A DNA stretch of 61,763 bases. It comes from Candidatus Moraniibacteriota bacterium (GTDB taxonomy: Bacteria > Patescibacteriota > Minisyncoccia > Moranbacterales > UBA2206). The DNA lies in assembly GCA_003543115.1 (NCBI GenBank), contig DPJH01000004.1, positions 1 to 61,763 of the forward strand, in the 5' to 3' direction. A model generated the notes under the pieces. That model was not told where the DNA came from. It saw nothing but the letters and a program-made list of their open reading frames with translations, and searched no databases. Both the position numbers and the translations under genes were made by a program. Positions 1 through 56,258 of this stretch are shown here, one piece after another (position 1 is the stretch's first letter; every line of letters starts with the position of its first letter).

Positions 1-31
1 TCAGGAGTAATCAGTCATAAAATTCAAAAAT

Positions 32-9068: not shown

Positions 9069-9099
9069 GTCGTGGGTTCATCTGATCCCACGACTTTTT
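9069..9099 (+). terminator. Rho-independent terminator
   Basis: gtcgtggg-ttcatctga-tcccacgac followed by ttttt. Confidence 0.7.
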
Positions 9100-9263
9100 C
9101 ATTGACTTTATGGCTGTTTTGATATAACATTCGATATCAGGTCTTTTGCAATTGAATATATTATATTTAAGCTTTAAGTTTGGGACGAACACAGGAGATC
9201 AACTCTTAATAAATTTCTCCGGCAAACTCTTTTGCCGGAGAAATAAACTTTCGATTAAGGAGG

Positions 9264-9752: not shown

Positions 9753-9826
9753 TGGAGCATCGTTTTAATATGGCAAGACGGCAAAATTTGAATTTGCATT
9801 TCGGGGTTCGACTCCCTGTGCTCCAG
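9753..9826 (+). tRNA. tRNA-Gln (anticodon UUG)
   Basis: Hand-folded 74-nt cloverleaf. Acceptor tggagca/tgctcca (U1-A72, G73, as in bacterial tRNA-Gln). D stem gttt/agac with GG in the loop. Anticodon stem gcaaa/tttgc, loop a-t-TTG-a-a. T arm cgggg-ttcgact-ccctg. CCA is not encoded. Confidence 0.85.
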
Positions 9827-12089: not shown

Positions 12090-12731
12090 TTAGAGAAGTT
12101 TTTTCAACGCCTCTTGGATATCTTCGGTCAGGTGATTTATTTTCTCATTTTCTTCAGGAGAAAATCTTTCTAGGACGAAATCACCCGCTTCGACTCGCGG
12201 AGACCGCTCGTCGACGCGAGGCGGGTGGACGCCCATGCGGCATGAAGGCGTGTCTGTTTCGGTTTTTCTCCCGATGCCTATGCGCAGGCGAGTGAATTTT
12301 TGCGTGCTAAGATTGTCGATAATATTTTGGATTCCGTTGTGTCCGGCTGATCGAGAATCGGTAGAGATTTTGAAAGTCCCGATTTCAATATCCACTTCGT
12401 CTTGAATGACAATAATTTCCTCAGGCGCGAGTTTATAGAAATCAAGCATGGCTCGGACGGCAGTGCCGGAGAGATTCATGAATGTCTGAGGCTTTACCAA
12501 AATTAGTTTATGGTTCTCAGTTTTCCCGCCTGCCGATGAGGCAGGTAGTTTTCCCGCCTGCCGATGAGGCAGGTAGTTGCCTTCGGATATTTCGGCATTG
12601 AATTTTTTGTTAAAAGTAAATTCCGGAAAATCAAAATCTTTCTGCAGTTTTTCTACAATTTCAAAACCGATATTGTGGCGGGTGCCCTCATATTGCTTTC
12701 CCGGATTCCCTAGGCCTATTATGATTTTCAT
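12090..12731 (-). CDS. pth: Peptidyl-tRNA hydrolase with two GC-rich in-frame insertions
   Basis: MKIIIGLGNPGKQYEGTRHNIGF, LVKPQTFMNLSG, GHNGIQNI and RLRIGIG match Pth. There are extra segments compared with my recollection of the E. coli Pth sequence. Confidence 0.9.
   Translation of the reverse strand: MKIIIGLGNPGKQYEGTRHNIGFEIVEKLQKDFDFPEFTFNKKFNAEISEGNYLPHRQAGKLPASSAGGKTENHKLILVKPQTFMNLSGTAVRAMLDFYKLAPEEIIVIQDEVDIEIGTFKISTDSRSAGHNGIQNIIDNLSTQKFTRLRIGIGRKTETDTPSCRMGVHPPRVDERSPRVEAGDFVLERFSPEENEKINHLTEDIQEALKKLL
12521..12578. repeat. Tandem duplication (28-bp period) of a GC-rich hairpin element inside pth
   Basis: ttttcccgcctgccgatgaggcaggtag occurs twice in a row. Each unit contains the hairpin cctgcc-gatga-ggcagg. 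It is related to the element at 56147..56196. Confidence 0.85.
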
Positions 12732-28702: not shown

Positions 28703-28782
28703 TAACAAATTATGGCACCTGTCTGCCTTTAGGCAGGAATCAGTCTAAGGCTGAAATTAATTTATATTTAATCTGAAAATCT

Positions 28783-31250: not shown

Positions 31251-31318
31251 GTTTAGAGTAAAAAGATAGCGGGGCGACTTGATTGAGAGATTAAGTCGCC
31301 CCGATTTAAAATAATATT

Positions 31319-56136: not shown

Positions 56137-56258
56137 TAGTTTGTAGTTTGCCCGCCTATCGGTAGGCAGGCCTGCCCGCCGGTAGGCAGGTGGTTTATGG
56201 AAACATCAAGCCCCGCTACATAATCTGCTTACTAAAAAATAAGAACTAAGGACTAAAT
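56137..56258 (+). repeat. Heptamer-repeat spacer (rplR-rpsE) with an embedded GC-rich palindromic element at 56151..56190
   Basis: tagtttgtagtttg | cccgcctatcggtaggcagg cctgcccgccggtaggcagg | tggtttatgg ... ctacataatctgcttactaaaaaataagaactaaggactaaata. The GC block includes the 12-bp perfect palindrome ggcaggcctgcc and shares cccgcct...aggcagg with the pth insert. Confidence 0.75.

What the first reader, a model, noticed from the sequence alone, without database searches (positions are those of the whole stretch)
12521..12578. GC-rich palindromic mini-element inserted in frame, as a tandem pair, inside the essential gene pth; related copies in the rplR-rpsE and nrdR-nrdD spacers
Inside pth (minus strand) the plus strand reads ttttcccgcctgccgatgaggcaggtag twice in tandem (28-bp period). 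Each unit holds the hairpin cctgcc-gatga-ggcagg.

The protein gains about 19 residues here (...EG N YLPHRQAGKLPASSAGGKT ENHKLILVKPQTFMNLSG), at a point where E. coli Pth as I recall it has a short loop.

A clearly related sequence lies in the rplR-rpsE spacer (56147..56196): gtttgcccgcctatcggtaggcagg cctgcccgccggtaggcagg tggtt. It shares gttt-cccgcct...aggcagg-t.gtt. A shorter ctgcc-ttta-ggcagg hairpin follows nrdR (about 28722..28738).

A GC-rich, hairpin-forming, duplicating unit in an AT-rich genome behaves like a REP/MITE-type mobile mini-element, and here one copy is tolerated within a coding sequence.
Basis: partly seen in the sequence, partly recalled or inferred. Interest (0 to 1): 0.65.

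Follow-up and report, generated by a model that had tools for sequence, protein, structure and literature searches.

The report
In-frame palindromic mini-elements in Moranbacteria genes
Two copies of a 21-base GC-rich hairpin sit in frame in a floppy surface loop of the essential enzyme Pth of a groundwater Moranbacterium. They belong to several families of tiny palindromes that recur, nearly always in frame, inside many housekeeping genes of related bacteria, much as the far larger palindromic elements of Rickettsia do.

Summary
A perfect 28-bp x2.1 repeat lies at 12519-12578 inside pth, and two assemblies and k-mer depth in two samples support it.

The unit is a 21-nt core, CCCGCCTGCC-N5-GGCAGG, not the 28-mer. 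Two cores lie 7 nt apart inside a 33-nt heptad-repeat loop segment. Each adds 7 codons, so the path from a 14- to a 21- to a 28-residue loop stays in frame. A 28-nt slippage would not.

The same core occurs as a single copy, in either orientation, at this site in other Moranbacteria pth genes. It also occurs in MiaA, MiaB and intergenic DNA elsewhere.

A metagenome scan found at least 120 stretches carrying it, 106 of them unique. Of these, 100 have lengths divisible by 3, and 68 lie inside long ORFs of housekeeping genes. The reading frames used are strongly biased towards the least basic peptides, so the elements are probably translated.

Both pth inserts are low-confidence loops in the AlphaFold2 model. 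The spacer copies belong to a sister 20-nt family, and the nrdR hairpin is weak.

This behaves like Rickettsia palindromic elements, but the elements are far shorter, GC-rich and in Candidate Phyla Radiation (CPR) bacteria. How they move is unknown. I found no prior description.

The parts
12090..12731 (-). pth (peptidyl-tRNA hydrolase) CDS, 213 aa, host of both elements
   Evidence: ORF. PF01195 and Moranbacteria Pth homologs. PDB Pth E=2e-32. AF2 core pLDDT >90.
   Evidence: TRF score 120, 100% matches. Junction unitig at single-copy depth in runs X1 and X2.
12553..12573 (+). family-B core copy 1, 21 nt, CCCGCCTGCCGATGAGGCAGG on the + strand. Gene-proximal on the sense strand, read as (Y)LPHRQAG, residues about 53-60.
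   Evidence: The same core family is in L100, L102, L163/L180, L173, L209 and L210.
12525..12545 (+). family-B core copy 2, 21 nt, read as PASSAGG, residues 63-69
   Evidence: It sits at the same position in the 33-nt loop (after nt 12...CTA|) as the single B core of L209 and the family-A element of L086.
12504..12524 (-). heptad-like repeats on the sense strand, AAAACTG AGAACCA TAAACTA. Together with 12546-12552 (AAAACTA, between the cores) and 12574-12578 (AACTA) they form the 33-nt non-core loop segment.
   Evidence: The non-core length is 33 nt in the window, L209 and L084. The heptad sequence follows the host's own Lys-Leu codons (AAACTA here, AAGCTA in L209/L210).
12184..12225 (+). family-A element, 42 nt, CCCGCTTCGACTCGCGGAGAC-CGC-TCGTCGACGCGAGGCGGG. 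The palindrome extends to 12182-12227. Read on the pth sense strand as PPRVDERSPRVEAG, residues 170-183.
   Evidence: 21-nt inverted arms. 42 nt inserted between CA|T of the His codon relative to orthologs, with no duplication. At least 120 metagenome stretches carry the same left arm.
56151..56190 (+). two adjacent 20-nt near-palindromes in the rplR-rpsE spacer (CCCGCCTATCGGTAGGCAGG and CCTGCCCGCCGGTAGGCAGG), sister 'family C'
   Evidence: RNA fold -29.3 kcal/mol, z = -3.6. No terminator or promoter pattern. L18/S5 flanks.
28718..28737 (+). weak hairpin CCTGTCTGCC-TTTA-GGCAGG downstream of nrdR, possibly a decayed family-C copy
   Evidence: 4 of 20 mismatches to the spacer unit. -10.7 kcal/mol, z = -1.4, and 20 of 200 shuffles fold as well.

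Best explanation
The 60-bp periodic stretch is two copies of a 21-nt GC-rich palindromic mini-element, family B (CCCGCCTGCC-N5-GGCAGG). The two cores lie 7 nt apart, each just after a ...AACTA, inside a 33-nt heptad-repeat segment. That segment encodes the beta-hairpin loop of Pth between strands 46-53 and 74-81.

Each core adds exactly 7 codons. The ribosome reads through both, and the result is 14 extra residues in a disordered surface loop of an otherwise intact enzyme.

The same gene carries a second element of another family: A, 42 nt, in a second loop.

These are members of several families of very short elements (21-45 nt, length divisible by 3) that are prone to insertion and are probably selfish. 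They occur in Moranbacteria/Parcubacteria genomes. They land in many places and persist mainly where they are in frame, encode a weakly charged flexible peptide, and fall in a permissive loop or a spacer.

**Shown:** anatomy, recurrence, the in-frame rule, the frame bias, and the patchy distribution.
**Inferred:** mobility and translation.
**Unknown:** the enzyme or process that moves them.
For: **Family B**
- The core recurs in unrelated contexts. L100 has three copies, two of them inside the MiaB and MiaA ORFs. Others are in L102, L163/L180 and L173, the last with the same TCATC loop as the window.
- It occurs as a single copy in pth of L209, and in the opposite orientation in pth of L210, at the same loop and flanked by heptads.
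- Loop-length classes among 120 Pth homologs are 10, 14, 21 and 28 aa, and the steps from 14 up are 7 aa each.
- The non-core loop is 33 nt in the window, L209 and L084. The net gain is therefore 2 x 21 nt, not 2 x 28.
- A B core is present in 4 of 120 homologs, which needs 4 changes on an NJ tree. None of the 12 nearest relatives has one.

**Family A**
- At least 120 metagenome stretches carry it, 106 unique after collapsing by flanks. Lengths are 39, 42 or 45 nt, and 100 of 106 are divisible by 3.
- 68 of 106 lie inside long ORFs, and 67 of those 68 have lengths divisible by 3, against 33 of 38 elsewhere (Fisher p = 0.02).
- All 20 hosts I tested have housekeeping Pfam domains: UvrA, UvrC, RecR, GyrB, SecA, AtpA, PNPase, ArgRS, TyrRS/TrpRS, DnaG, DnaE, S10, TatD, RfbB and others.
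- Orientation and frame usage over 52 collapsed sites is 33/9/4/3/2/1 (chi-square p about 4e-17). Usage falls as the net positive charge of the encoded peptide rises.
- The same element occurs in the opposite orientation at pth site 1 in L086, and at a third pth position in L154.
- Nested copies sit in the loops of other copies.

**Other evidence**
- Comparing filled and empty sites at pth site 2 shows a clean 42-nt gain with no duplication.
- AF2 gives both inserts pLDDT <50-70 and coil, with the core above 90.
- At pth site 1, different orthologs carry different palindromes: A, B, C-like, PLLNKERVRGEV, a GAGGCTAAGCCTCC...GGAGGATTAGCCTC type, and RSNLEISNEIA..APRND.
- AtpA shows the same pattern at one loop.
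Against: - No transposase, donor copy or insertion event has been seen.
- In the source community, neither the 68-nt B stretch nor the 59-nt A stretch is found at 85% or better anywhere except pth. Neither is therefore a multicopy near-identical repeat in this genome. Lone 21-nt cores would escape that test.
- Family-A flanks show no fixed target sequence.
- Orthologous family-A insertions are 88-100% identical while the 150-nt flanks are only 47-70% identical. That test is partly biased, because the search fixed the left arm. The result fits simple neutral selfish DNA poorly. It demands either recurrent gain at the same site or constraint on the sequence itself.
- The two 28-nt units are 100% identical. 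A recent duplication would also give that, if it were compensated by loss of one heptad.
- No RNA or protein data could be obtained, so translation rests on length and frame statistics alone.
Confidence: 0.7

Rival explanations
1. Local origin only. A lineage-specific loop sequence in pth was duplicated in tandem by replication slippage (28 bp), and no mobile family is involved.
For: The two 28-nt units are 100% identical over 60 nt. The hairpin and the flanking heptad repeats are the kind of sequence that provokes slippage. The unit is not found elsewhere in the source community at 85% or better.
Against: A 28-nt step shifts the frame, so alleles with one or three copies would truncate an essential enzyme. 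The non-core loop length is unchanged at 33 nt, so the net gain is 2 x 21 nt. The same 21-nt core occurs in MiaA, MiaB, intergenic DNA, and other pth genes in both orientations.
Confidence: 0.1
2. The hairpins are functional signals rather than selfish DNA. They might act in the mRNA (stability, processing, ribosome pausing) or in the DNA (a protein binding site), and are kept by selection. The peptides would be a tolerated by-product.
For: Family-A arms are nearly invariant while host flanks have diverged to 47-70% identity. Copies lie in operon spacers, such as either side of rpsM in L143 and between rplR and rpsE here. This resembles REP/BIME elements, which stabilise mRNA. The predicted hairpins are strong, at -26 to -29 kcal/mol.
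Against: Close relatives differ in presence or absence: 9 of 120 Pth carry A at site 2, needing 8 changes on the tree, and none of the 12 nearest relatives has it. Different families occupy the same loop in different lineages. The positions are scattered across unrelated genes. There is no match to any Rfam family and no terminator pattern.
Confidence: 0.12
3. The inserts are not translated. They are cut out of the RNA, like mini-introns, or bypassed by the ribosome, as in T4 gene 60 or the 'byp' elements of Magnusiomyces mitochondria.
For: They are GC-rich hairpins in AT-rich coding sequence, like byps (my own knowledge). Family A also lies in the D-loop region of tRNA-like sequences.
Against: If the inserts were removed, neither length nor frame would matter. 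Yet 67 of 68 coding copies have lengths divisible by 3, and frame and orientation usage is extremely skewed towards the least basic peptides. There is no stop codon at a take-off site and no matching take-off and landing codons around the pth inserts (sequence). The tRNA cases are 5' fragments lying next to intact tRNA copies, not functional tRNAs.
Confidence: 0.05
4. Assembly or sequencing artefact.
For: Tandem repeats shorter than the k-mer and palindromes can both be mis-assembled. One 151-nt record in run X6 looks like a fold-back.
Against: Two assemblies give the identical protein. K-mer depths in two samples fit two copies. Related cores appear in many independent assemblies.
Confidence: 0.01

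Closest known systems
Rickettsia palindromic elements (RPE-1 to RPE-10)
   Same: Both are hairpin-forming repeats inserted in frame into many unrelated, often essential, genes. Both add peptides at positions compatible with the fold, both also occur in RNA-gene and intergenic contexts, and neither has a known transposase (review PMC10969869).
   Different: RPEs are about 100-150 bp, lie in Rickettsia, and were described as unusual for that genus. The elements here are 21-45 nt, GC-rich in 35-40% GC genomes, in Moranbacteria/Parcubacteria, and unrelated in sequence. Several families share one loop, and copy number in this genome is very low.
REP/BIME elements mobilised by RAYT (Y1/HUH) transposases
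   Same: Both are 20-40-nt GC-rich imperfect palindromes, often in pairs, found in operon spacers. No target duplication was seen at the one site where a filled and an empty allele could be compared.
   Different: REPs are extragenic, number in the hundreds per genome, and carry a terminal GTAG or CGTC tag (PMC3733652). Here most copies are intragenic and copy number is low. GTAG follows the window's B cores but not other B copies. The window has no recognisable RAYT, though I did not scan it exhaustively.
GC clusters of yeast mitochondria and 'byp' elements of Magnusiomyces (my own knowledge, not checked in the paper library)
   Same: Both are short, GC-rich, palindromic, apparently mobile inserts in a very AT-rich, gene-dense genome, including inside protein-coding genes.
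   Different: Byps are skipped by translational bypassing and need not keep the frame. Here the length and frame statistics argue for read-through. The host here is a bacterium.
Bacterial MITEs (Correia/NEMIS, ERIC, RUP and others)
   Same: Both are non-autonomous elements with inverted-repeat structure that are sometimes co-transcribed or fused to ORFs.
   Different: MITEs are 50-500 bp, have terminal inverted repeats matching a parent IS, and have defined target-site duplications. None of these features was found here.

Membership tests
Rickettsia palindromic elements (RPE) | Palindromic repeat able to form a stable hairpin | tested here: met
   RNA folds of -26.3 (B pair), -27 (A) and -29.3 (spacer) kcal/mol, z = -2.6 to -3.6. 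21-nt inverted arms.
Rickettsia palindromic elements (RPE) | In-frame insertion into many unrelated protein-coding genes | tested here: met
   Family A: 68 of 106 copies lie in long ORFs, and 67 of those 68 have lengths divisible by 3. All 20 tested hosts have distinct housekeeping Pfam domains. Family B lies in Pth, MiaA and MiaB.
Rickettsia palindromic elements (RPE) | Sequence homology to RPE-1..10, about 100-150 bp, genus Rickettsia | tested here: not met
   The elements are 21-45 nt. The host is Candidatus Moranbacteria. No direct sequence comparison with RPE consensus sequences was run.
REP (RAYT-associated) | Extragenic location and high copy number (tens to hundreds per genome) | tested here: not met
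   Most copies are intragenic. The 61.8-kb window holds 2 B cores, 1 A and 2-3 C-like units. The A and B stretches are unique in the source community at 85% or better.
REP (RAYT-associated) | Conserved terminal GTAG or CGTC tetranucleotide | tested here: not met
   The window's B cores are followed by TAG, giving GGCAG-GTAG. Other B copies are followed by TATG, TCAA, GACA or TCTC. Family-A flanks have no fixed tetranucleotide.
REP (RAYT-associated) | A RAYT (Y1 transposase) gene in the same genome | not testable with these tools
   Only one 61.8-kb contig of the genome is available, and the window's ORFs were not scanned exhaustively.
MITE | Defined target-site duplication | tested here: inconclusive
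   Pth site 2, filled against empty: CA|T becomes CA[C..42 nt..GG]T, with no duplication. Flanking direct repeats of 5 nt or more occur in 17 of 106 A copies, against about 4 expected. Many of those flanks are themselves 7-8-nt tandem repeats.
MITE | Length 50-500 bp and terminal inverted repeats shared with a parent IS | tested here: not met
   Lengths are 21-45 nt. Pairs of A copies flank ordinary genes (rfbC, ftsE, rpsM), not a transposase.
Translational bypass elements (T4 gene 60, mitochondrial byps) | Coding gap not constrained in length or frame, with matching take-off and landing codons and a stop after take-off | tested here: not met
   See the divisible-by-3 rule and the frame bias. 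The frame is open through both pth inserts and there is no stop at the boundary.

The most novel reading that the evidence does not exclude
Moranbacteria and related Parcubacteria harbour a class of ultra-short palindromic elements that live inside genes and has not been described. The elements are 21-45 nt, with lengths divisible by 3. They repeatedly occupy the very same codon positions of orthologous essential genes, in lineages whose flanking sequence has diverged to 50-70% identity, yet the elements themselves stay about 90-100% identical. This implies either site-specific homing and precise excision by an unknown enzyme that recognises hairpins, or a function at the sequence level. Hairpin loops appear to be preferred targets: tRNA D-arm fragments and the loops of resident copies.
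Probability: 0.4. Interest if true: 0.8.

Novelty: new variant of a known kind. Interest (0 to 1): 0.7.

Why it matters
In-frame 'protein-coding palindromes' have been treated as a peculiarity of Rickettsia. Finding the same behaviour in the Candidate Phyla Radiation, with much smaller and unrelated elements, has three consequences.

1. It shows that reduced, gene-dense genomes can be colonised by selfish DNA that hides inside essential genes.
2. It explains part of the puzzling length variation and low-complexity loops of CPR proteins. These loops disturb alignments, phylogenies and structure predictions.
3. It offers a natural map of insertion-tolerant loops in core enzymes.

The near-identity of copies at orthologous sites, and the apparent preference for hairpin loops, point to an insertion and excision mechanism that is not yet known and could be looked for.

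Tried and rejected

2. **Viral-contig scans for A and B.** No hits.

3. **Protein search with concatenated PASTRGD... peptides.** Nothing scored, probably because of low complexity. That search was wasted.

4. **RNA runs for pth and for a Hainich locus.** None were served, so translation could not be tested directly.

5. **An inverted allele that I withdrew.** From I first read a record in run X6 as a strain with the site-2 element inverted. One search showed the 151-nt record is rc(12202-12227) followed by 12217-12325. That is a perfect-palindrome or fold-back form at depth 3, and it could be a library artefact. I have dropped the claim.

6. **De novo clustering of GC islands.** It fragmented the elements and was not used for counts.

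7. **Perfect-stem hairpin scan.** It missed the imperfect elements.

8. **CRISPR repeat.** Considered and rejected: there are no spacers and the copies sit head to tail.

9. **DNA uptake sequence.** Considered and rejected: the density is far too low.

10. **IS200/IS605-like targeting.** No fixed flank on the left side.

11. **Composite transposon.** Paired copies flank ordinary genes.

12. **Gene-conversion tract from another pth allele.** The window's site-2 flanks resemble its insert-free nearest relative P0003, not the insert-bearing P0002/P0005 clade.

Full report
**1. What is there**

The window is a whole 61,763-bp contig at 37% GC. It comes from a sediment metagenome. Its Pth and the Pth neighbourhood match Candidatus Moranbacteria, in the Parcubacteria group of the Candidate Phyla Radiation (CPR).

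TRF reports a 28-bp unit, 2.1 copies, 100% identical, at 12519-12578. It lies in the minus-strand ORF 12090-12731, which is Pth (PF01195; PDB Pth at E=2e-32). Each unit holds CCTGCC-GATGA-GGCAGG, a pattern found twice against 0.01 expected.

The repeat is not an assembly artefact:
- An independent assembly of the same run encodes the identical 213-aa protein.
- In two samples, the Logan unitig that spans the junction between the copies has the depth of the flanks (20.1 against 21.4 and 23.1).
- The two 31-mers that occur twice have depth 36.5.
- No single-copy joint is seen.

**2. The unit is a 21-nt core, and the frame logic follows from that**

On the sense strand the region reads:

GGC AACTA [CCTGCCTCATCGGCAGGCGGG] AAAACTA [same core] AAAACTG AGAACCA TAAACTA ATT.

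Since 28 is not a multiple of 3, the two copies are read in different frames (YLPHRQAG and PASSAGG). An allele with one or three copies of the 28-mer would truncate Pth.

The DNA of other orthologs resolves this:
- L084 has a 33-nt heptad-like loop and no core.
- L209 has the same 33 nt plus one core, CCTGCCTCGCCGGCAGGCGGG, after nt 12.
- L210 has the same core in the opposite orientation.
- L086 has a 45-nt family-A element after nt 12.
- The window has 33 nt plus two cores, after nt 5 and nt 12, each following ...CTA.

Among 120 Pth homologs the loop-length classes are 10, 14, 21 and 28 residues. The route 14 to 21 to 28 is in frame at every step.

The heptads copy the host's own Lys-Leu codons: AAACTA here, AAGCTA in L209 and L210. 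They therefore derive from the target, not from the element. How the heptad arrays arise is not resolved. Repeated footprints, or slippage next to a hairpin, are both possible.

A 28-nt duplication offset by loss of one heptad would give the same sequence and cannot be excluded.

**3. A second element in the same gene**

The strongest GC peak in the window is 12173-12262. It is a 42-nt palindrome at 12184-12225, with 21-nt arms. On the sense strand it reads PPRVDERSPRVEAG.

Codon alignment shows a clean 42-nt gain inside the His codon: CA|T becomes CA[C...GG]T. There is no duplication.

The same insert lies at the same codon in L083 and L001, whose Pth is only 57-59% identical to the window's. 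It is absent from the window's nearest relatives. L086 carries the reverse complement of this element at site 1, and L154 carries it at a third position.

**4. The family is large and lives mostly in genes**

After collapsing by flanks, 106 copies remain. Their lengths are 39 (17 copies), 42 (52) and 45 (24), plus nested forms of 63-89 nt. In all, 100 of 106 are divisible by 3.

- 68 copies lie within open frames of at least 150 aa, and 67 of these have lengths divisible by 3. Among the other 38 copies, 33 do (Fisher p = 0.02).
- All 20 hosts I tested have housekeeping Pfam domains: UvrC, RecR, TyrRS/TrpRS, PNPase, AtpA, GyrB, S10, UDG, WecG, ArgRS, TatD, M23 peptidase, UvrA, a Pyr_redox_2 enzyme, SecA, RfbB, CCA-adding enzyme, DnaG and DnaE.
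- Over 52 collapsed sites, orientation and frame usage is 33, 9, 4, 3, 2, 1 (p about 4e-17). The favoured readings are PASTRGDxSSTRGG (net charge +1) and PPRVDExSPRVEAG (-1). The rarely used readings are Arg-rich, at +2 to +5.

Together with the length rule, this is the evidence that the elements are translated. It is statistical, not direct.

The remaining copies lie in operon spacers (for example either side of rpsM in L143), in AT-rich repeat contexts, in the loops of other copies, and after the D-loop GG of 5' tRNA fragments.

One host I checked, AtpA of L093, is again Moranbacteria. Its orthologs carry A, or another palindrome, at one loop. I can therefore claim Moranbacteria/Parcubacteria, not all CPR.

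**5. Family B and the spacer copies**

In about 1 Mb of these loci the B core recurs: in L100 (three copies, two inside MiaB and MiaA), in L102, in L163/L180, and in L173, which has the window's loop.

The rplR-rpsE units are 20-nt near-palindromes of a sister family, CCTGCCTGCCGG[C/T]AGGCAGG. That family is also seen in L099, L114, L162, L173, L047 and L207. They share arm motifs with B but are not the same element.

The spacer structure is strong (-29.3 kcal/mol, z = -3.6). It matches no Rfam family and no terminator pattern. The nrdR hairpin is weak.

**6. Effect on the protein**

The AlphaFold2 model has mean pLDDT 82 and a core above 90. Residues 54-73 and 156-181 come out as low-confidence coil. 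The first stretch lies between strands 46-53 and 74-81.

Solved Pth structures have a 15-residue gap at site 1. The invariant Pth motifs are intact.

**7. What does not fit simple selfish DNA**

- In the source community, the 68-nt B stretch and the 59-nt A stretch are found only at pth.
- No fixed target sequence, transposase or parent element was found.
- Orthologous A insertions are 88-100% identical while their flanks are 47-70% identical. The left arm was fixed by the search, so this test is partly biased.
- On an NJ tree of Pth, admittedly noisy, the 9 carriers of A at site 2 need 8 changes and the 4 carriers of B need 4.

Two readings are possible. Either the same codon is hit, or vacated precisely, again and again. 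Or the sequence is under a constraint of its own. I cannot decide between these.

**8. Comparison with known systems**

The behaviour matches Rickettsia palindromic elements: in-frame palindromes in many essential genes (PMC10969869). Size, composition, sequence and host all differ.

REP/RAYT and MITE membership tests fail on location, copy number, terminal tag, size and parent element (PMC3733652). The length and frame statistics argue against bypass or intron models.

Full-text searches found no description of such elements in CPR bacteria. That is not proof that none exists.

**9. Verdict**

- The finding opens onto a wider phenomenon that appears undescribed.

Noticed in passing
L106:~965-1380, L144, L167 (also L100, L145, L198): A 5' fragment of a tRNA (acceptor, D arm and start of the anticodon stem) carries a family-A element right after the D-loop GG. 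It lies 35-300 nt upstream of an intact copy of the same tRNA (Glu, Leu, Ile or Lys). In three cases an 82-aa GIY-YIG nuclease ORF (PF01541, E=2.7e-12) sits between the fragment and the intact gene. This looks like a tRNA-targeting GIY-YIG cassette that brings a replacement tRNA.
   Followed up: partly
L100:2486-3733 (MiaB) and L100:3755-4753 (MiaA); L162:3735-4940 (MiaB): These proteins carry several different GC-rich palindromic inserts in a row, for example TPSPQPSPEYGRGG, YPSLPSGEMSRCTHRDREG and TCLASRRA. The MiaB ortholog in L162 has a different element (SLPAGRQA) at the same loop.
   Followed up: partly
Pth orthologs P0002/P0027/P0038, P0040/P0049/P0105, P0020/P0054/P0058 (alignment A1): Other insert families occupy pth site 1, encoding PLLNKERVRGEV, RSNLEISNEIA(A/T)SPTAPRND and SSPFGRGCRVLATGEG. 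The first two resemble peptides I have seen in hypothetical ORFs of many phyla (from memory only), so some of these palindromes may be much more widespread than Moranbacteria.
   Followed up: no
L124, L131, L156, L175, L183, L197, L122/L133, L188, L114: Nested family-A copies. A second palindrome, often CGCCCGCTTCGACTC...GAGGCGAG, is inserted in the loop of a resident copy. Most totals remain divisible by 3 (63, 66, 72, 78, 84).
   Followed up: partly
L094:1681-4674: The GyrB gene that hosts a family-A element also contains an intein (PF14890 Intein_splicing, residues 462-757).
   Followed up: no
window 12202-12325 in run X6: A 151-nt record at depth 3 reads as a perfect palindrome or fold-back of the right arm of the site-2 element, joined to the normal pth flank. 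It is either a quasi-palindrome-corrected allele or a library artefact.
   Followed up: partly
L116, L119, L130, L143, L165, L180, L200, L201: Many intergenic family-A copies share a larger conserved AT-rich context made of TTTCGTA-type repeats: TTTTCGTACTTTCG|element|TATTTCGTATTAATTTCGTATTTCGTAA. This suggests a longer composite repeat in spacers.
   Followed up: no
window 9069-9094, 9213-9244, 31270-31303: These are the only perfect GC-rich stems of 7 bp or more in the window. They are unrelated in sequence to the elements and are probably ordinary terminators. A tRNA lies at 9753-9826.
   Followed up: no
AtpA orthologs P0121-P0240, after consensus residue 185 (IDTIINQK|GQD): A single AtpA loop carries, in different Moranbacteria, the family-A peptide, another palindrome-like peptide (PARNA[S/V]HS[D/K]AGG), or a 21-aa insert (YEWDKLKKNGQNPVKSPNGDH).
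   Followed up: partly
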